A stretch of DNA of 64,000 bases from Eledone cirrhosa (taxonomy: Eukaryota), in the NCBI GenBank assembly GCA_964016885.1, contig OZ024743.1, positions 222,580,001 to 222,644,000 of the forward strand. The letters are read 5' to 3'. The notes beneath the pieces were generated by a model. That model did not search any database. It had not been told where the DNA came from and was given only the letters and a program-made list of their open reading frames with translations. This document shows, piece by piece, positions 2,645-60,667 of this stretch. The position numbers and the translations under genes were made by a program. The stretch's first letter is position 1. Each line of letters begins with the position of its first letter.

Positions 2645-5600
2645 AGAGAATAATAGTAAGAATGAGAGAGAAGGAAAGAGATGGAAAGAGAATGAGAGAA
2701 GGAAAAAGAATGAGAGAAGGAAAGAGAATGAGAGAAGGAAAGAGAATGAAAGAGAATGAGAGAGAAGGAAAAAGAATGAGAAGGAAAGAGAATGAGAGAA
2801 GGAAAGAGAATGAAAGAGAATGAGAGAGAAGGAAAAAGAATGAGAAGGAAAGAGAATGAAAGAGAATGAGAGAGAATGAAAGAGAATGAGAGAGAAGGAA
2901 AGAGAATGAGAGAAGGAAAGAGAATGAAAGAGAATGAGAGAGAATGAAAGAGAATGAGAGAGAAGGAAAAAGAATGAGAGAAGGAAAGAGAATGAGAGAA
3001 GGAAAGAGAAGGAAAGAGAATGAGAGAGAATGAAAGAGAATGAGAGAGAAGGAAAAAGAATGAGAGAAGGAAAGAATGAAAGAGAAGGAAAGAGAATGAG
3101 AGTAGGAAGGAGAATGAGAGAAGGAAAGAGAATGAGAGAGAATGAGAGAAGGAAAGAGAATGAAAGAGAAGAAAAGAGAATGAGAGAGAATGAGAGAAGG
3201 AAAGAGAATGAAAGAGAATGAGAGAAGGAAAGAGAAGGGAAAAGAATGAGAGAAGGAAAGAGAATGAGAGAGAATGAAAGAGAATGGAAGAGAATGAGAG
3301 AAGGAAAGAGAATGAGAGAGAATGAAAGAGAATGAGAGAGAAGGAAAAAGAATGAGAGAAGGAAAGAAAATGAAAGAGAATGAGAGAAGGAAAAAGAATG
3401 AGAGAAGGAAAGAAAATGAAAGAGAATGAGAGAGAAGGAAAAAGAATGAGAGAAGGAAAGAGAATGAAAGAGAATGAGAGAAGGAAAGAGAAGGGAAAAG
3501 AATGAGAGAAGGAAAGAGAATGAGAGAGAATGAAAGAGAATGGAAGAGAATGAGAGAAGGAAAGAGAATGAGAGAGAATGAAAGAGAATGAGAGAGAAGG
3601 AAAAAGAATGAGAGAAGGAAAGAAAATGAAAGAGAATGAGAGAGAAGGAAAAAGAATGAGAGAAGGAAAGAGAATGAAAGAGAATGAGAGAGAAGGAAAA
3701 AGAATGAGAGAATGAAAGAGAATGAGAGAGAAGGAAAGAGAATGGGAGAAGGAAAGAGAATGAAGGAATGAGAGAGAAGGAAAAAGAATGAGAGAATGAA
3801 AGAATGAGAGAGAAAGAAAAAGAATGAGAATGAAAGAGAATGAGAGAGAAGGAAAAAGAATGAGAGAAGGAAAGAGAATGAGAGAAGGAAAGAATGAGAG
3901 AGAAGGGAAAAGAATGAGAGAAGGAAAGAGAATGAGAGAAGGAAAGAGAATGAAAGAGAATGAGAGAGAAGGAAAAAGAATGAGAGAAGGAAAGAGAATG
4001 AAAGAGAATGAAAGAGAATGAGAGAAAAGGAAAGAGAATGAAAGAGAGAAGGAAAGAGAATGAGAGAGAGAAGGAAAGAGAATGAGAGAGAGAAGGAAAG
4101 AGAATGAGAGAGAAGGAAAGAGAATGAGAGCGAGAAGGAAAGAGAATGAGAGAGAAGGAAAGAGAATGAGAGCGAGAAGGAAAAAGAATGAGAGCAAGAA
4201 GGAAAAAGAATGAGAGCAAGAAGGAAAGAGAATGAGAGAGAAAGAAAGAGAATGAGAGAGAGGGAAAGAGAATGAGAGAGAGAAGGAAAGAGAATGAGAG
4301 AGAAGGGAAAAGAATGAGAGAAGGAAAGAGAATGAAAGAGAATGAAAGAGAATGAGAGAGAAGGAAAAAGAATGAGAGAAGGAAAGAGAATGAAAGAGAA
4401 TGAGAGAAAAGGAAAGAGAATGAGAGAGAGAAGGAAAGAGAATGAGAGCGAGAAGGAAAGAGAATGAGAGAGAGAAGGAAAGAGAATGAGAGCGAGAAGG
4501 AAAAAGAATGAGAGCGAGAAAGAGAATGAGAGAGAAAGAAAGAGAATGAGAGAGAGGGAAAGAGAATGAGAGAGAAAAGGAAAGAGAATGAGAGCGAGAA
4601 GGAAAGAGAATGAGAGAGAGGGAAAGAGAATGAGAGAGAGAAGGAAAGAGAATGAGAGCGAGAAGGAAAGAGAATGAGAGAGAGAAGGAAAGAGAATGAG
4701 AGCGAGAAGGAAAGAGAATGAGAGAGAGAAGGAAAGAGAATGAGAGAGAGAGGGAAAGAGAATGAGAGCGAGAAGGAAAGAGAATGAGAGAGTAGGAAAG
4801 AGAATGAGAGAGAAGGAAAGAGAATGAGAGAGAGAAGGAAAGAGAATGAGAGCGAGAAGGAAAGAGAATGAGAGAGAGAAGGAAATAGAATGAGAGCGAG
4901 AAGGAAAGAGAATGAGAGAGTAGGAAAGAGAATGAGAGAGAAGGAAAGAGAATGAGAGAGAGTAGGAAAGAGAATGAGAGAGAGGGAAAGAGAATGAGAG
5001 AGAAGGAAAGAGAATGAGAGCGAGAAGGAAAGAGAATGAGAGAGTAGGAAAGAGAATGAGAGAGAGAAGGAAAGAGAATGAGAGAGAGTAGGAAAGAGAA
5101 TGAGAGAGAGGGAAAGAGAATGAGAGAGTAGGAAAGAGAATGAGAGAGAGTAGGAAAGAGAATGAGAGAGAAAGAAAGAGAATGAGAGAGAGGGAAAGAG
5201 AATGAGAGAGAGAAGGAAAGAGAATGAGAGAGAAGGGAAAAGAATGAGAGAGAGAAGGAAAGAGAATGAGAGCGAGAAGGAAAGAGAATGAGAGAGAGAA
5301 GGAAAGAGAATGAGAGCGAGAAGGAAAGAGAATGAGAGCGAGAAGGAAAGAGAATGAGAGAGAAGGAAAGAGAATGAGAGAGAGTAGGAAAGAGAGGGAA
5401 AGAGAATGAGAGAGTAGGAAAGAGATTGAGAGAGAGTAGGAAAGAGAATGAGAGAGAGGGAAAGAGAATGAGAGAGAGAAGGAAAGAGAATGAGAGAGAG
5501 AAGGAAAGAGAATGAGAGAGAGGGAAAGAGAATGAGAGAGAGAAGGAAAGAGAATGAGAGAGAGAAGGAAAGAGAATGAGAGCGAGAAGGAAAGAGAATG

Positions 5601-7471
5601 AGAGCAAGAAGGAAAGAGAATGAGAGAGAAAGAAAGAGAATGAGAGAAGGAAAGAGAATGAAAAAGAATGAGATAAGGAAAGAGAATGAGAGAGAAGGAA
5701 AAACAATGAGAGAAGGAAAGAGAATGAAAGAGAATGAGAGAAAAGGAAAGAGAATGAAAGAGAGAAGGAAAGAGAATGAGAGAGAGAAGGAAAGAGAATG
5801 AGAGAGAGAAGGAAAGAGAATGAGAGAGAAGGAAAGAGAATGAGAGCGAGAAAGAAAGAGAATGAGAGAGAAAGAAAGAGAATGAGAGAGAGGGAAAGAG
5901 AATGAGAGAGAGAAGGAAAGAGAATGAGAGCGAGAAGGAAAGAGAATGAGAGAGAGGGAAAGAGAATGAGAGAGAGAAGGAAAGAGAATGAGAGCGAGAA
6001 GGAAAGAGAATGAGAGAGAGAAGGAGAGAGAGAGAGAAGGAAAGAGAATGAGAGCGAGAAGGAAAGAGAATGAGAGAGAGAGGGAAAGAGAATGAGAGAG
6101 AGAGGGAAAGAGAATGAGAGCGAGAAGGAAAGAGAATGAGAGAGTAGGAAAGAGAATGAGAGAGAAGGAAAGAGAATGAGAGAGAGAAGGAAAGAGAATG
6201 AGAGAGAGAAGGAAAGAGAATGAGAGCGAGAAGGAAAGAGAATGAGAGAGTAGGAAAGAGAATGAGAGAGAGAAGGAAAGAGAATGAGAGAGAGGGAAAG
6301 AGAATGAGAGAGTAGGAAAGAGAATGAGAGAGAGTAGGAAAGAGAATGAGAGAGAAAGAAAGAGAATGAGAGAGAGGGAAAGAGAATGAGAGAGAGAAGG
6401 AAAGAGAATGAGAGAGAAGGGAAAAGAATGAGAGAGAGAAGGAAAGAGAATGAGAGCGAGAAGGAAAGAGAATGAGAGAGAGAAGGAAAGAGAATGAGAG
6501 AGTAGGAAAGAGAATGAGAGAGAAGGAAAGAGAATGAGAGAGAGAAGGAAAGAGAATGAGAGCGAGAAGGAAAGAGAATGAGAGAGAGAAGGAAAGAGAA
6601 TGAGAGCAAGAAGGAAAGAGAATGAGAGAGTAGGAAAGAGAATGAGAGAGAGAAGGAAAGAGAATGAGAGAGAAGGAAAGAGAATGAGAGAGAGAGAGAG
6701 GGAAAGAGAATGAGAGAGAGAAGGAAAGAGAATGAGAGCGAGAAGGAAAGAGAATGAGAGAGTAGGAAAGAGAATGAGAGAGAGAAGGAAAGAGAATGAG
6801 AGAGAGAAGGAAAGAGAATGAGAGCGAGAAGGAAAGAGAATGAGAGAGAGAAGGAAAGAGAATGAGAGCGAGAAGGAAAGAGAATGAGAGAGTAGGAAAG
6901 AGAATGAGAGAGAGAAGGAAAGAGAATGAGAGAGAGAAGGAAAGAGAATGAGAGAGAGTAGGAAAGAGAGGGAAAGAGAATGAGAGAGTAGGAAAGAGAA
7001 TGAGAGACAGTAGGAAAGAGAATGAGAGAGAGAAGGAAAGAGAATGAGAGAGAGAAGGAAAGAGAATGAGAGAGAGGGAAAGAGAATGAGAGAGAGAAGG
7101 AAAGAGAATGAGAGAGAGAAGGAAAGAGAATGAGAGCGAGAAGGAAAGAGAATGAGAGCAAGAAGGAAAGAGAAGGAAAGAGAATGAGAGAGAGAGAAGG
7201 AAAGAGAATGAGAGAGAGTAGGAAAGAGAATGAGAGAGAGGGAAAGAGAATGAGAGAGTAGGAAAGAGAATGAGAGAGAGAAGGAAAGAGAATGAGAACG
7301 AGAAGGAAAGAGAACGAGAGAGAGAAGGAAAGAGAATGAGAGAGGGAAAGAGAATGAGAGAGAGGGAAAGAGAATGAGAGAGTAGGAAAGAGAATGAGAG
7401 AGAGAAGGAAAGAGAATGAGAGAGAGGGAAAGAGAATGAGAGAGAGGGAAAGAGAATGAGAGAGAGGGAAA
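2645..7471 (+). repeat. 4.8-kb polypurine satellite, unit ~GGAAAGAGAATGAGAGA(GA)nA (about 19-25 bp)
   Basis: Directly visible tandem array; + strand almost entirely A/G. Confidence 0.97.
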
Positions 7472-7874
7472 GCCATCCTCAAACTTTATTTAATAGAGGC
7501 AGCAAAACGTTAGTCATTTTATACAAAATAACCACATTCTTTTCCTCTATAGTTAAATGAACACACATACACTATTCAAACATACATGAATGGCAAAAGT
7601 ACACTCACACATACACACACTCACACCCACACTGATTTATTTTACAAGAAAGCTTACCTCTCTCAGCTCATCTCACAAAAAAAATGAAACAAACACCTGT
7701 TGACAATAGGTGTTGCACATTATGGTGAATTCAGATTGTACATAACTCTTGCATGCCTTCCTCTTATCCCTGTGTATATGTGAGTTTTCTGTTGTTGTTT
7801 TACATAGTTTACAAGTGTCTCATTGGAATGGTTTAAGCTAGAAGGCAAGGCTTACTTGCAATGTTGTATATAGT

Positions 7875-42376: not shown

Positions 42377-42685
42377 AAGTAGAAGGGATATTTAATTTGT
42401 TGGAAATTCAACAAATATAAATGTTTATAACTGATTCAGAGCACTCGACAGTTTTATGGAGTAAATATTCAATGATATTAAATAAATGGAAACTATATTT
42501 ATAAAACCATATTTATTTTCAACTGATAAGGTATGGTTTCCTTGGCTATGTCAAAATTTATAAAACACTCTTTGTATTTTATCTGATGAAAGCGTACCAA
42601 AGTTTGATGGTACCCTTGGAATATATATAATAGAATAAATATGGTTTTATAAATATAGTTTCCATTTATTTAATATCTTTGTATT
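42377..42685 (+). mobile_element. Penelope-type micro-element with ~44-bp inverted repeats around a hammerhead
   Basis: IR 42474-42518 / 42634-42677; between (TA)n tracts. Confidence 0.7.
42575..42637 (+). ncRNA. Type I hammerhead ribozyme fold (GAAA mutated to GGAA)
   Basis: TATTTTAT-CTGATGA-AAGCGTACC..GGTACCCTT-GGAA-TATATA-TA-ATAGAATA; 8-bp stem I, palindromic stem III. Confidence 0.7.
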
Positions 42686-44243: not shown

Positions 44244-44328
44244 GGTGACGCGCGTTTTGCTATTGATCAGCCCAAGGTTCGATCTGTATCGATCTGGCCC
44301 GACTCTGGAATCAAAAGCTCGTCGGACC
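44244..44328 (-). ncRNA. Degenerate type I hammerhead fold, CCGACGA core, extended stem II
   Basis: GGT-CCGACGA-GCTTTTGAT...ATCAATAGC-AAAA-CGCGCG-TC-ACC then AATAAA. Confidence 0.62.
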
Positions 44329-54629: not shown

Positions 54630-54736
54630 CGTATATGAGATACTTGAATAGGGAGAAAATTAAAATGAAAATGAAACTGAAAATGAAAGAGAGATAAAAT
54701 AAAAAATGGAAGAAAAGCAATAGGAAAGCGGAAGAA

Positions 54737-56070
54737 AATAGTAATGGAGATGGGGGAAATAGTAATAGAGAGGAGGAAATAGTAATAGAGAGGGGGAAAT
54801 AGTAATAGAGAGGGGAGAAATAGTAATAGAGAGGGGAGAAATAGTAATAGAGAGGGGAGAAATAGTAATAGAGTGGGGAGAAATAGTAATAGAGAGGGGG
54901 AATAGTAATAGAGAGGGGGAAATAGTAATAGAGCGGGGGAAATAGTAATGGTGAGGGGAAAATAGTAATGGAGAGGGGGAAATAGTAATAGAGAGGGGGA
55001 AATAGTAATAGAGAAGGGGAAATAGTAATAGAGTGGGGGAAATAGTAATAGAGAGGGGGAAATAGTAATAGAGAGGGGGAAATAGTAATAGAGAGGGGAG
55101 AAATAGTAATAGAGAGGGGAGAAATAGTAATAGAGAGGGGAGAAATAGTAATAGAGTGGGGAGAAATAGTAATAGAGAGGGGGAATAGTAATAGAGTGGG
55201 GGAAATAGTAATAGAGCGGGGGAAATAGTAATGGAGAGGGGGAAATAGTAATGGAGAGGGGGAAATAGTAATAGAGAGGGAGAAATAGTAATAGAGTGGG
55301 GGAAATAGTAATAGAGAGGGGGAAATAGTAATAGAGAGGGGGAAATAGTAATAGAAAGGGGGAAATAGTAATAGAGTGGGGGAAATAGTAATAGAGAGGG
55401 GAAATAGTAATAGAGAGGGGGAAATAGTAATAGAGAAGGGGAAATAGTAATAGAGTGGGGGAAATAGTAATAGAGAGGGGGAAATAGTATTAGAGTGGGG
55501 GAAATAGTAATAGAGAGGGGGAAATAGTAATAGAGAGGGGGAAATAGTAATAGAGAGGGGGAAGTAGTAAGAGAGTGGGGGAAATAGTATTAGAGTGTGA
55601 AAATAGTAATGGAGTGGGGAAATAGTATTAGAGTGGGGGAAATCGTAATAGAGAGGGGGAAATAGTAATAGAGAGGGGGAAATAGTAATAGAGAGGGGAG
55701 AAATAGTAATAGAGTGGGGAGAAATAGTAATAGAGTGGGGGAAATAGTAAGAGAGTGGGGGAAATAGTAAGAGAGTGGGGGAAATAGTAATAGAGTGGGT
55801 GGCAATAGTATTAGAGTGGGAAAATAGTAATAGAGCGGGGGGAAATAGTAAGAGAGTGGGGGAAATAGTAATAGAGAGGGGGAAATAGTAATAGAGAGGG
55901 GAGAAATAGTAATAGAGTGGGGAGAAATAGTAATAGAGTGGGGGAAATAGTAAGAGAGTGGGGGAAATAGTAAGAGAGTGGGGGGAAATAGTAATAGAGT
56001 GGGTGGCAATAGTATTAGAGTGGGGAAATAGTAATAGAGCGGGGGGAAATAGTAAGAGAGTGGGGGAAAT
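54737..56070 (+). repeat. 20/21-bp G-tract minisatellite
   Basis: GAAATAGTAATAGAG(A/T)GGGG(G) x ~65. Confidence 0.96.
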
Positions 56071-56460
56071 AGGGGACGTAAAATAGAGTGGGGGAAGATA
56101 AGTAAATTGGAGAGAAAAGAGAGGTAAAGAAATGAAGAAGTAAAAATTAAAAAAAGTAAGAGAAATATGAGGTTAGAGAGTAAGAATGTTAGAGAATGTA
56201 AACGTAGAGGACAATATATGGCGTGCTGATATATGTATGTGTATGTGTGTGTGCGTGTGTGTGTGTTCCATATACACATATATATATGTGTGTGTATATG
56301 TGTGCCATATACATATATATATGTGTGTGTGTATGAGTGTGCCATATACATATATAAATGTGTGTATATGTGTGCCATATACATATATGTGTGTATGAGT
56401 GTGCCATATACATATCTATCTACATATCTGTGTGTGTATGTGTGTGTATATGGCGTGTCG

Positions 56461-56795: not shown

Positions 56796-56913
56796 GCCAA
56801 CACAAGAGCAAGAATGAAGTGTTCATTCTACTGACATGGCTATAAAATTGAGGTTTGTTTGCATAATTGCAAACGAATCGAATTTATAATTAATATTCGA
56901 AAAAAACTCAGAT

Positions 56914-56951
<38 letters not shown>

Positions 56952-57242
56952 GTTCAAGGGTATCTTAAAGAGAGAGATGGAGATAGGAGAGGAGAAGAGA
57001 GATTGGTGAATTGGTTAGAAGCCAAAGCGTAAAGGCATGTGCTCAATGTGCAATATGCTGTGGAAGGCAGCTAGGTGGCTGGGTTCATGCAGAGGTTAGG
57101 TGCACAGAGCTGGAAATATTCATTAGTTAAGCAAAACAAGACCACAAATTTCACAAGGAAGACATTATTAAAAGATTGTCAGCATAGTTTTAGTTTAATG
57201 TAAGGAATGTAAAGAATAATAATGATAATACTAATAATGTCC

Positions 57243-57361
57243 GTTTACAATTGTTTCGCTACTCCATATAATGTTTCTGGATCAAATGATTATAGATCAT
57301 TATTGATCTGGTTCAGATGAAGATAATTAACTTAGGTAAAATTGGAGCAGCTCATCGGAAC
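57243..57361 (-). ncRNA. Hammerhead fold (CCGATGA core, long stem II), pLTR copy 1
   Basis: Reverse complement of 58271-58389. Confidence 0.62.
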
Positions 57362-58270
57362 TTCAAAATGAATATAAATTAAAGTAAAGAAAGAAGGTTA
57401 CATGAATGTACTGTTCCATATATTGGTATTTCACTATGGTGTCCTGGGTATTTCTATTGTCTGCCATAGGCGAGCAATATTCTTCTGTCGAGGCTGCATT
57501 ATTTGAGATCTGCCTATGGGGAACAAGATGGCCGCAAAAGGACATATTTATCTTACTAATTAGAGGGTGGTTTCAGGGGAAGTAACTCCTCGAGAAATTA
57601 GAAATTGTAGATAGTTTATAGTTAAGAATTGCTAATGAGTTTAAATGAGAGACAATGTAAGGGAGGTAACTTATAATTATCTAAATTAGCTGTAACTATT
57701 TAACTTGTTAGCTATAAGGAAAAGTGGGGATAGATAACTATGTTGGGTCAAATATTCTGTTCGCGAAGGAATTAGCCCTTCGATGTTGACAGCTAATAGT
57801 TACCTCCGTTCTATCATTAATCGGTGGAGGTCGTGATAGAGTTATGTAATAGGCTTCGGTAAGACAGAGATCACAATAGTTTCTTCGTCCATTGAACGAT
57901 TGGGCTCTGGCCAAGATATCCCATGTTAGTGAGTGTTCAATGTTGGTTAATTTAAGGTGTTTAATGAGCCTAGATAGAGATGTCGAACATCTATTGCTAG
58001 GGTCTCGGAAGGAAAATGAGTGCGCATTATAGCGTACCTTAAAAGGGTTATAGTTGTTGCTAATTTTGTGAGGAAATTATTCTTGTGTTTATAATGCTTT
58101 TTGAATTTAATGCTCCTGACGAAGTTAAATAGATCTTTCTCAAAAGGGTCCAGCAGGATGTTGTGTGGAAGGTTCTTGCGGGTGGTAAATCCATATCTGT
58201 TTGCTGTACTATATGGAACATTACATTCATGTAACCTTCTTTCTTTACTTTAATTTATATTCATTTTGAA

Positions 58271-58389
58271 GTTCCGATGAGCTGCTCCAATTTTACCTAA
58301 GTTAATTATCTTCATCTGAACCAGATCAATAATGATCTATAATCATTTGATCCAGAAACATTATATGGAGTAGCGAAACAATTGTAAAC
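58271..58389 (+). ncRNA. Hammerhead fold (CCGATGA core, long stem II), pLTR copy 2
   Basis: GTT-CCGATGA-GCTGCTCCA...TGGAGTAGC-GAAA-CAATTG-TA-AAC; 9-bp stem II base, palindromic stem III. Confidence 0.65.
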
Positions 58390-58509
58390 GGACATTATTA
58401 GTATTATCATTATTATTCTTTACATTCCTTACATTAAACTAAAACTATGCTGACAATCTTTTAATAATGTCTTCCTTGTGAAATTTGTGGTCTTGTTTTG
58501 CTTAACTAA

Positions 58510-58549
<40 letters not shown>

Positions 58550-58552
<3 letters not shown>

Positions 58553-58738
58553 CGAAGGGGGTGTGGTAAGGAACCAGATGAACCACAACGCACCAGAGTA
58601 CTCAATACTTAGGGTAGTAGAGTGGGTAATAGGAAAATGTATGATCCCGACGGCAGAGCTCAAGCCGTTTCGATGGTATTTCTGAACTGAAATACCCGTT
58701 GAAACGGCTTGAGCTCTGCCGTCGAGGTCATACATTTT

Positions 58739-58742
<4 letters not shown>
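58550..58742. mobile_element. Fold-back micro-element in (TA)n (same family as 1432-1622)
   Basis: Shared leader; inverted repeat 58629-58742. Confidence 0.78.
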
Positions 58743-58823
<81 letters not shown>

Positions 58824-58896
58824 ACCTCCCTGTATAGATAAGAAATGTATAATCTATAAATTAAGCCCCCATATTAACTGTAAAACTAGAAATGTA

Positions 58897-59214
58897 GTGT
58901 ATAGCATAAGATGTACTGAAGGACAATGTAGAGATAAGAATATAGTGTACATAGGTGAGACAGCTCATAGTATAGGGGAACGGATAAATGAACACTGGCG
59001 AGAGCTTCAAGATAGTAAAGAATCATCTGTACTCCACCAACATGCTAAAATAGAACATAAGGGTAAATTAGAGAACATAGAAAAAAAAATAGAATCTACA
59101 CACAGAAAAGACGCAATGTTTAGACAAATCACAGAGGCAATAAACATAAATGAACTCCAACCAAAATTAAATAGAAAACATGAATGGAATAGCAACATCA
59201 CAACTTACAATTAA
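58897..59214 (+). pseudogene. Penelope GIY-YIG endonuclease domain (5'-truncated)
   Basis: VYSIRC..QC....YIGETAHSIGERINEH...SVLHQH...RQITEAININELQPKLNRKHEW. Confidence 0.9.
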
Positions 59215-59389: not shown

Positions 59390-59432
59390 GTCACTGAAGA
59401 GGTCACAGAATGTGTGACGAAAGAACTTTGAC
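59390..59432 (+). ncRNA. Minimal type I hammerhead ribozyme with intact core
   Basis: GTCA-CTGAAGA-G-GTCACA-GAATG-TGTGAC-GAAA-GAAC-TT-TGAC in the Penelope 3' region. Confidence 0.78.
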
Positions 59433-60249: not shown

Positions 60250-60292
60250 ACGTTGCTGACAATAGCTAATAAGCTTGAAACTAGTACAGCGT
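60250..60292 (+). ncRNA. Minimal type I hammerhead fold (CTGACGA mutated to CTGACAA)
   Basis: ACGTTG-CTGACAA-TAGCT-AATA-AGCTT-GAAA-CTAG-TA-CAGCGT; lies between ~41-bp direct repeats 60098-60139 / 60508-60548. Confidence 0.68.
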
Positions 60293-60667
60293 TCCTTTGT
60301 CAAACGAGCAACGAAGGTTGCTAGACACTACGGCTTAATACGGGATGTTTGTTTACAAACACACCGAGCATTATAATAAATGTTCGGTGAATCCAAACGT
60401 GCATATATATATGTGTGCATGTATGTATATATATATACATACTACTGTACGTCTGTACACATATAAGTATGTACGTGTACATACTTATATTTAAGTAACA
60501 GCCGTACTAAGAGTGGGAAATGAAATTTCGTTTCATTTTTTCCGTTTATATATATATATATATATATGTTTGTACGTATGTATGTATGTATGTATGTATG
60601 TATGTATGTATGTATGTATGTATGTATGTATGTATGTATGTGTGTATGTATGCATGTATGTATGTAT

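What the first reader, a model, noticed from the sequence alone, without database searches (positions are those of the whole stretch)
57243..58389. Recurring CCGANGA (U4C) hammerhead core paired with a greatly extended stem II
Seen: the pLTR hammerhead reads CCGATGA instead of CTGATGA, with a ~76-nt structured insert in stem II (inner helices GATCAA/TTGATC and AATGAT/ATCATT). The unrelated element at 44244-44328 also has CCGACGA with a long stem II, and a weaker case occurs at 34806-34893 (CCGTCGA). T>C here creates a CpG, the opposite of the CpG decay seen at other cores in this window (CGA>CAA at 60261, CG>CA at 44258). Inference: this may be an ancestral, functional ribozyme variant class rather than decay. 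Caveat: stem I is only 3 bp in both main cases.
Basis: partly seen in the sequence, partly recalled or inferred. Interest (0 to 1): 0.75.

Follow-up and report, generated by a model that had tools for sequence, protein, structure and literature searches.

The report
Retroelement hammerheads with drifting catalytic cores
These are hammerhead-ribozyme motifs at the ends of Penelope-like jumping genes; the odd core letter (C for U) is fixed in whole families but arose several times and is not tied to the unusually long second arm, and the motif likely cuts its RNA only slowly, which is untested.

Summary
The sequences are real. The two copies at 57243-58389 are mirror arms of one insertion of a Hydra-clade Penelope-like element. 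C4 is the family state, not decay: 91 of 100 listed copies, and 23 of 24 copies chosen by the endonuclease protein. The 44-kb and 35-kb motifs are homologous to each other, not to the main one; CCGACGA and CCGTCGA (A6U) are also family states. The proposed pairing fails. Long stem II occurs with U4 about as often as with C4 (4,251 versus 5,216 raw matches), and one short-stem family has C4. C4 is derived: 49 of 52 hammerheads in metagenomic relatives are CTGA, all with short stem II; a tree shows U/C flips both ways and two origins of A6U. No A4 or G4 family was seen; the other core letters and the stems are kept, with covariation. Best reading: a weakened, likely dimer- or protein-assisted hammerhead under relaxed constraint at positions 4-7, plus a separately conserved long arm. 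Cleavage is untested; no RNA run was listed. U4C is known from viroid-like RNAs. This scan reported the long arm with C4 before on other DNA of this genome, and A6U in other genomes.

The parts
58210..58516 (+). Inverted, 5'-truncated copy of the 3' end of the Hydra-clade Penelope-like element (family F1)
   Evidence: 307-nt 100% inverted repeat of 57116-57422; typical PLE insertion structure per PMC8557442 passages
58271..58389 (+). F1 type I hammerhead motif: stem I 3 bp, core CCGATGA (U4C), 9-bp stem II, palindromic stem III, predicted cut after A58386
58290..58365 (+). 76-nt stem II insert of F1 (AT-rich loop plus inner hairpin)
   Evidence: fold -9.2 vs shuffles -5.3 +/- 2.1, 9 of 300 as low; pairs largely kept in 61 copies, little two-sided covariation
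57243..57361 (-). Same hammerhead in the sense copy, about 380 nt after the endonuclease stop codon
57738..58249 (-). Frameshifted C-terminal part of the GIY-YIG endonuclease with CxxC..E..N..CxH, Hydra-type
   Evidence: ORFs 57738-58076 and 57947-58249; longer copies show CxCX5C linker and RT; clade definition
56945..57115 (-). One-sided 'tail' of the F1 insertion, ending in (TA)n
   Evidence: 33 blast matches run on to 56910-56949 while 38 stop near 57116
44244..44328 (-). Family F2 hammerhead (CCGACGA, 60-nt stem II region, stem III CGCGCG); this copy has lost G12 at 44258
34806..34893 (-). Family F3 hammerhead (CCGTCGA = U4C plus A6U, A10.1-C11.1 mismatch, 61-nt stem II region); homologous to F2
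59390..59432 (+). Canonical minimal hammerhead (CTGAAGA, 18-nt stem II) of a separate PLE, after GIY-YIG ORF 58822-59214; in-window contrast

Best explanation
These are type I hammerhead motifs at the 3' ends of Hydra-clade Penelope-like retroelements and their non-coding derivatives; C4 is a repeatedly fixed, likely tolerated change in a ribozyme that likely cuts only slowly, as a dimer or with help from the element's protein, and the long stem II is a separate, conserved add-on. Shown: family-level fixation of C4; link to a Hydra-type endonuclease; all four combinations of U4/C4 with long/short stem II; several U/C switches; two origins of A6U; invariance of C3, G5, G8, A9, G12 and A14 in the aligned set; covariation of stems I, II, III and the inner arm. 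Inferred: the palindromic stem III pairs between two RNAs; reverse transcription starts about 50 nt past the cut site on mostly uncut RNA, so fast cleavage is not needed and selection on positions 4-7 and pair 10.1-11.1 is relaxed but not gone; the inner arm of the F2/F3 class is likely bound by the element's protein or aids folding.
For: C4 in 91 of 100 listed of 128 matches with positions 4-5 left free (TG 5, CA 2, other 2, counted by eye); 23 of 24 arms from protein-selected copies, none T. U4 long-arm matches 4,251 (control 334) vs C4 5,216 (control 244); short C4 family 20 C4: 1 U4 in 100 listed (by eye). A4/G4: 1,387 vs control 698, listing shows a satellite and singletons, no family. 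Tree of 63 copies with 4, 6, 7 masked: U4 basal, one clade rejected for C4 (p-AU 2.7e-7) and U6 (2e-18). 33-copy alignment: 82.9% of cells paired vs 29-37% for slid controls, 20 of 31 pairs with two-sided change. Outgroup: 49 of 52 CTGA, stem II at most 39 nt. U4C tolerated in viroid-like RNAs. In another PLE, cleavage was protein-assisted and not needed for insertion in vitro (PMC11167929 passages); PLE hammerheads are slow and dimeric (PMC4209133). Further weakening changes are fixed in subfamilies: A10.1-C11.1 in 21 of 61 F1 copies and in F3; a one-base core insertion subfamily.
Against: No cleavage measured. C4U6 cores with a 3-4-bp stem I may be fully dead; A6 changes are damaging (PMC3088659 section 8). 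The hammerhead-compatible monomer fold is 1.4-7.6 kcal/mol above the minimum in 7 natural copies. Branches since C4 arose are short, so retention of other core letters is only modest evidence. F1 copies in the listing lie as inverted pairs or alone, and a transcript through both arms would be a long duplex. Covariation counts are inflated by relatedness (tool caveat). The F1 copy with the longest ORF (L173) has U4 in both arms.
Confidence: 0.6

Rival explanations
1. The C4 and above all the C4U6 motifs no longer cut; the fold is kept as a landmark for the element's reverse transcriptase or for 3'-end processing.
For: A6U fixed twice; about 52 of the first 100 C4 long-arm matches are U6 (by eye); 0 of 55 C4U6 copies with 900 nt upstream have a Hydra endonuclease there and long copies have non-coding bodies; cleavage dispensable for insertion in another PLE; AWTAAA lies 3-26 nt after the cut site in 83 of 93 class members vs 1 of 93 upstream.
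Against: C3, G5, G8, A9, G12, A14, A15.1 and U16.1 invariant in 33 copies of mean 68% column identity; only U and C seen at position 4 at family level, matching the change tolerated in viroids; reversions to U4 occur.
Confidence: 0.25
2. One reading: C4 and the long arm form a coupled, old and fully active class in which the arm compensates for C4.
For: All three window cases have both features; most C4 matches found have long arms; related elements outside this genome lack both.
Against: About 77 of 100 listed U4 long-arm matches are members of U4 families (by eye); short-stem C4 family; one CCGA short-stem case in metagenomes (L269); F1 insert not homologous to the F2/F3 insert (1.3 vs 26-34 bits); C4 switches on and off under an unchanged arm.
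Confidence: 0.1
3. The motif has no present function; it drifts with the master elements.
For: Several damaging changes fixed in successful families; F1 stem pairs broken in subfamilies.
Against: Two-sided changes in all helices and invariant core letters across lineages 72-93% alike within groups.
Confidence: 0.05

Closest known systems
Hammerheads of Hydra-clade C-terminal EN+ PLEs (Craig et al. 2021, PMC8557442; passages, section 11, supplement parts 1-2 seen)
   Same: Host clade motifs, (TA)n insertion, inverted truncated copy and tail, type I hammerhead near the 3' end with short palindromic stem III
   Different: All Hydra hammerheads listed in File S2, including the octopus one, read CTGA with short stem II; here 60-95-nt stem II regions and C4, C4U6 or insertion cores
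Minimal type I hammerheads of metazoan PLEs (Cervera and de la Pena 2014, PMC4209133; parts 1-2 of 4 and a search of 2 supplement files seen, file 1 not searched)
   Same: Short stem I, long-ish stem II, palindromic stem III, predicted dimer, low activity; family-level core variant (U3-A8) known
   Different: Consensus CUGANGA and G10.1-C11.1; no U4C, A6U or large stem II domain in the parts seen
Natural U4C (CCGA) hammerheads of viroid-like RNAs (PLMVd variant via PMC3088659 and PMC9608096 passages; zeta and betaviroid-like RNAs, bioRxiv 10.64898/2026.09.16.752053 passages)
   Same: Same core change, recurring, compatible with replication
   Different: Type III ribozymes of circular RNAs with tertiary contacts; here type I in a retroelement, fixed in thousands of genomic copies and sometimes joined by A6U
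PAc Poseidon element hammerhead of Anolis (PMC11167929; passages seen)
   Same: PLE hammerhead upstream of the internal RT start that makes the tail
   Different: Tested: protein-assisted cleavage, dispensable for insertion in vitro; canonical short motif in another clade
Dimeric PLE hammerhead variants of Lunse, Weinberg and Breaker 2017 (not held; known only from citation in PMC6765202 and recall)
   Same: Reduced stem III, dimer cleavage, PLE association
   Different: Cannot say; its large variant set may already contain these motifs

Membership tests
Type I hammerhead ribozyme | Stems I, II, III around the core, open end at stem I | tested here: met
   covariation in all helices
Type I hammerhead ribozyme | Canonical core C3 U4 G5 A6 N7 G8 A9 / G12 A13 A14 A15.1 / U16.1 H17 | tested here: not met
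   U4C in F1, F2; U4C plus A6U in F3 and an F2 sister family; other letters kept
Type I hammerhead ribozyme | Self-cleavage after position 17 | not testable with these tools
   no RNA holder listed
Type I hammerhead ribozyme | Loop 1-loop 2 tertiary contact of fast hammerheads | not tested
   stem I is 3-4 bp with no obvious loop; no formal search made
Minimal PLE hammerhead (min-HHR) | Palindromic, unstable stem III | tested here: met
   CAATTG and CGCGCG palindromes, 93.9% of cells paired; F1 8-bp homoduplex -6.4 kcal/mol
Minimal PLE hammerhead (min-HHR) | G10.1-C11.1 and compact stem II | tested here: not met
   13 of 33 copies unpaired at 10.1-11.1; stem II region 60-95 nt
Hydra-clade PLE | C-terminal GIY-YIG without CCHH, CxCX5C linker, CxxC and CxH around E and N | tested here: met
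   read from F1 ORFs and L066 against the definition; by motif, no tree with reference proteins
Hydra-clade PLE | N-terminal RWK and DKT motifs | not tested
   no complete N-terminus examined
Hydra-clade PLE | Insertion into (TA)n, inverted truncated copy, tail | tested here: met
Non-autonomous PLE derivative (F2, F2b, F3) | 3' end homologous to an autonomous element, non-coding body | tested here: met
   about 150 nt upstream of the core match the 3' UTR of endonuclease-coding L066 at 74-86% for F2/F2b; non-coding bodies; 0 of 55 C4U6 and 1 (incidental) of 39 C4A6 copies with endonuclease upstream; no coding partner found for F3
Non-LTR retrozyme | Tandem head-to-tail units with a hammerhead each, circular RNA | tested here: inconclusive
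   by eye, C4 listings show inverted pairs only; direct tandems seen only for U4 family F4; RNA not available

The most novel reading that the evidence does not exclude
The long stem II arm is a docking site for the element's own protein that switches the ribozyme on, and this protein help has let the core drift (U4C, A6U, a one-base insertion, a broken 10.1-11.1 pair) while it still cuts: a natural protein-licensed hammerhead with a graded series of cores.
Probability: 0.15. Interest if true: 0.75.

Novelty: new variant of a known kind. Interest (0 to 1): 0.45.

Why it matters
Whether Penelope-like elements need their hammerhead is open. One genome here offers a natural series (U4A6, C4A6, C4U6, core insertion; short and long arms; coding and non-coding hosts) that can be assayed side by side. 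Descriptor searches that demand CUGANGA and a short stem II miss thousands of these motifs.

Tried and rejected
Rfam scan of the window: no hammerhead family among 102 matches at E up to 1. Pfam: no family for the F1 ORFs. RNA evidence: no RNA holder listed; laying four contig runs of unknown kind showed presence only; neither is evidence on expression. tree discarded (core mis-parsed for most rows) and redone, where 2 of 65 rows without a readable core were dropped; rows were hand-picked from 149 distinct copies, so the tree counts switches, not frequencies. (C/G/U at position 6) was confounded by matches inside stem II; its total is not used; by eye it showed only single G6/C6 copies. Totals include such internal matches and chance hits (9 internal and 8 other in the first 100). 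The idea that a shared CAGATC..GATC word makes the F1 insert homologous to F2/F3 was rejected. The idea that C4 strengthens a common inactive pairing was dropped: by eye it strengthens one in F2 and breaks one in the F3 lineage. The idea that U4C is required before A6U fits both origins here but is weak (two events), and unchecked scan notes report A6U on U4 in other genomes. An old-family artefact (C4 decayed to U4) is unlikely: neighbouring CpGs are mostly kept in U4 lineages. The short C4 family could not be linked to an ORF. The class model found no long-arm member in 79 metagenomic loci (best 22.9 bits, short motifs). Paper searches showed no description of C4 or long-arm PLE hammerheads; Lunse 2017 could not be read.

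Full report
1. What is in the window. The window lies in a 3.0-Gb animal genome; that it is an octopod is inferred from a repeat I recall and from a related protein named for Argonauta. The sequence 57116-58516 is one insertion: a 5'-truncated element on the minus strand plus a 307-nt perfect inverted copy of its 3' end, flanked by (TA)n, with a one-sided tail. The interior encodes the frameshifted end of a GIY-YIG endonuclease. Longer copies show RT, a CxCX5C linker and CxxC..E..N..CxH, the marks of the Hydra clade as defined in PMC8557442 section 11. About 380 nt after the stop lies the hammerhead motif with core CCGATGA, a 9-bp stem II enclosing 76 nt, a palindromic stem III and a 3-bp stem I. 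Chance is excluded: 0.05 hits per shuffled window. Rfam does not detect it.

2. Is C4 fixed? Yes. With positions 4-5 free, 128 matches were found and 100 listed: 91 CG, 5 TG, 2 CA, 2 other (counted by eye). Copies picked by the endonuclease protein, blind to the ribozyme, read C in 23 of 24 arms and T in none; over all F1 copies held, 62 of 69. The copy with the longest ORF has U4 in both arms (L173), one event against the trend. The 44-kb family (F2) has CCGACGA and an intact GAAA, so the window copy is a decayed one. The 35-kb family (F3) has CCGTCGA in many near-identical copies: A6U is the family state.

3. Is C4 paired with the long arm? No. Genome-wide patterns gave 5,216 matches for C4 with a 45-75-nt spacer (control 244) and 4,251 for U4 (control 334). 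By eye, 83 of the first 100 C4 rows are true cores of the F2/F3 class (52 with U6), and about 77 of the first 100 U4 rows belong to U4 long-arm families (48 to a separate family F4, 29 to the F2/F3 class). A short-stem family reads C4 in 20 of 21 listed rows. A or G at position 4 gave 1,387 matches against a control of 698, with a satellite and scattered single copies but no family in the 100 rows listed. The F1 insert is not detectably homologous to the F2/F3 insert, so long arms arose more than once or diverged beyond recognition.

4. Is C4 ancestral? Only within each family. Of 79 metagenomic loci encoding relatives of the F1 protein (the best 80 of 382), 52 carry a hammerhead: 49 CTGA, 1 CCGA, 1 U3-A8, 1 CGGA, all with a stem II region of at most 39 nt; the reversed control gave 1. 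Craig et al. File S2 lists only CTGA cores for Hydra. A tree of 63 hand-picked copies of the F2/F3 class, with positions 4, 6 and 7 masked and rooted on a U4 lineage, puts U4 lineages at the base of both arms, needs 10 changes at position 4 (some are single-copy CpG decay) and 2 at position 6, and rejects one clade for C4 and for U6. Switches appear in both directions; one subfamily has an extra core base. The alignment is short and several deep forks have under 95% support.

5. Is the fold maintained? In 33 copies across the class, C3, G5, G8, A9, G12, A14, A15.1 and U16.1 are invariant. A named structure of 31 pairs has 82.9% of cells paired against 29-37% for slid controls, with two-sided changes in stems I, II, III and the inner arm (the alternative register scores slightly lower; RNAalifold recovers stem II and the arm). 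The arm has a near-invariant internal loop and bulge shared by U4 and C4 lineages. For F1 alone the copies are too close for much covariation, and some pairs are broken in subfamilies, including 10.1-11.1 in 21 of 61. AWTAAA follows the cut site in 83 of 93 class members but 0 of 42 F1 copies.

6. Hosts. F1 is protein-coding (9 of 34 copies with enough flank have the endonuclease upstream). In the F2/F3 class one U4 copy follows a Hydra endonuclease (L066), and its 3' UTR matches the region upstream of F2 and F2b cores. C4U6 copies have no endonuclease upstream (0 of 55) and non-coding bodies, so they are likely passengers.

7. Mechanism. Established: PLE hammerheads with palindromic stem III are slow and work as dimers (PMC4209133); in the Anolis element cleavage needs the protein and is not needed for insertion in vitro (PMC11167929); U4C lowers activity yet supports viroid infection (PMC3088659) and recurs in viroid-like RNAs; A6 changes give low activity. 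That U4A and U4G are inactive, and that U4 and A6 are the two ends of the uridine turn, is recalled, not read. Inferred: with RT starting past the cut site on uncut RNA, a slow ribozyme costs little, so the 4-7 loop drifts among tolerated states while the catalytic G8 and G12 and the stems are kept. I put 0.6 on slow residual cleavage with an independent arm, 0.25 on a non-cutting fold kept for protein binding or end processing (more likely for C4U6), 0.1 on coupling, 0.05 on no function.

8. Novelty. Host clade, ribozyme type and U4C are each known. Family-wide C4 and C4U6 cores and 60-95-nt structured arms in PLE hammerheads were not found in seven paper searches, but Lunse et al. 2017 and its supplements could not be read, nor file 1 of the 2014 supplement. 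Earlier notes of this scan reached a similar reading on other parts of this genome and report A6U elsewhere; these are unchecked and are not counted as support. Verdict: new variant of a known kind, interest 0.45.

Noticed in passing
window 59390-59432 (+), ORF 58822-59214: A second PLE with a GIY-YIG domain and a canonical CTGAAGA minimal hammerhead sits right next to F1.
   Followed up: partly
window 58629-58743: Imperfect hairpin made of two inverted pieces of another repeat that holds GAAAC and a GTC triplet around a hairpin; may be half of a differently wired hammerhead. Similar pieces in L097.
   Followed up: no
window 60256-60295 (+), 42575-42639 (+), 35285-35371 (-): Three more decayed hammerhead-like motifs: G8A core; short CTGATGA motif; a degenerate relative of the long-arm class.
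   Followed up: partly
F2/F3 class and short C4 family, 3-26 nt after the cut site: AWTAAA in 83 of 93 and 5 of 5 copies, 11 of 48 metagenomic motifs; in F3 a U-rich stretch follows. A poly(A) site would fall between the cut site and the element end.
   Followed up: partly
L104, L105, L110, L037, L224: Subfamily with one extra base in the core (CTGAAGGA / CTGAAAGA), nested among C4 copies.
   Followed up: partly
L129-L132, L181-L183 and listing: U4 family F4 with 48-60-nt stem II region and CCATGG stem III occurs as direct repeats 300-720 nt apart, as retrozymes do.
   Followed up: no
L134, L135, L179, L180: Short-stem family with CCGAAGA core and a C-C mismatch at 10.1-11.1; no linked ORF found.
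   Followed up: partly
L119, L050, L099: U4 hammerhead-like motifs with 81-101-nt stem II regions in further families.
   Followed up: no
L269: One metagenomic Hydra-like element with CCGATGA and a 12-nt stem II.
   Followed up: no
window 2659-7472, 22079-28286, 54736-56072: Long satellite arrays.
   Followed up: no
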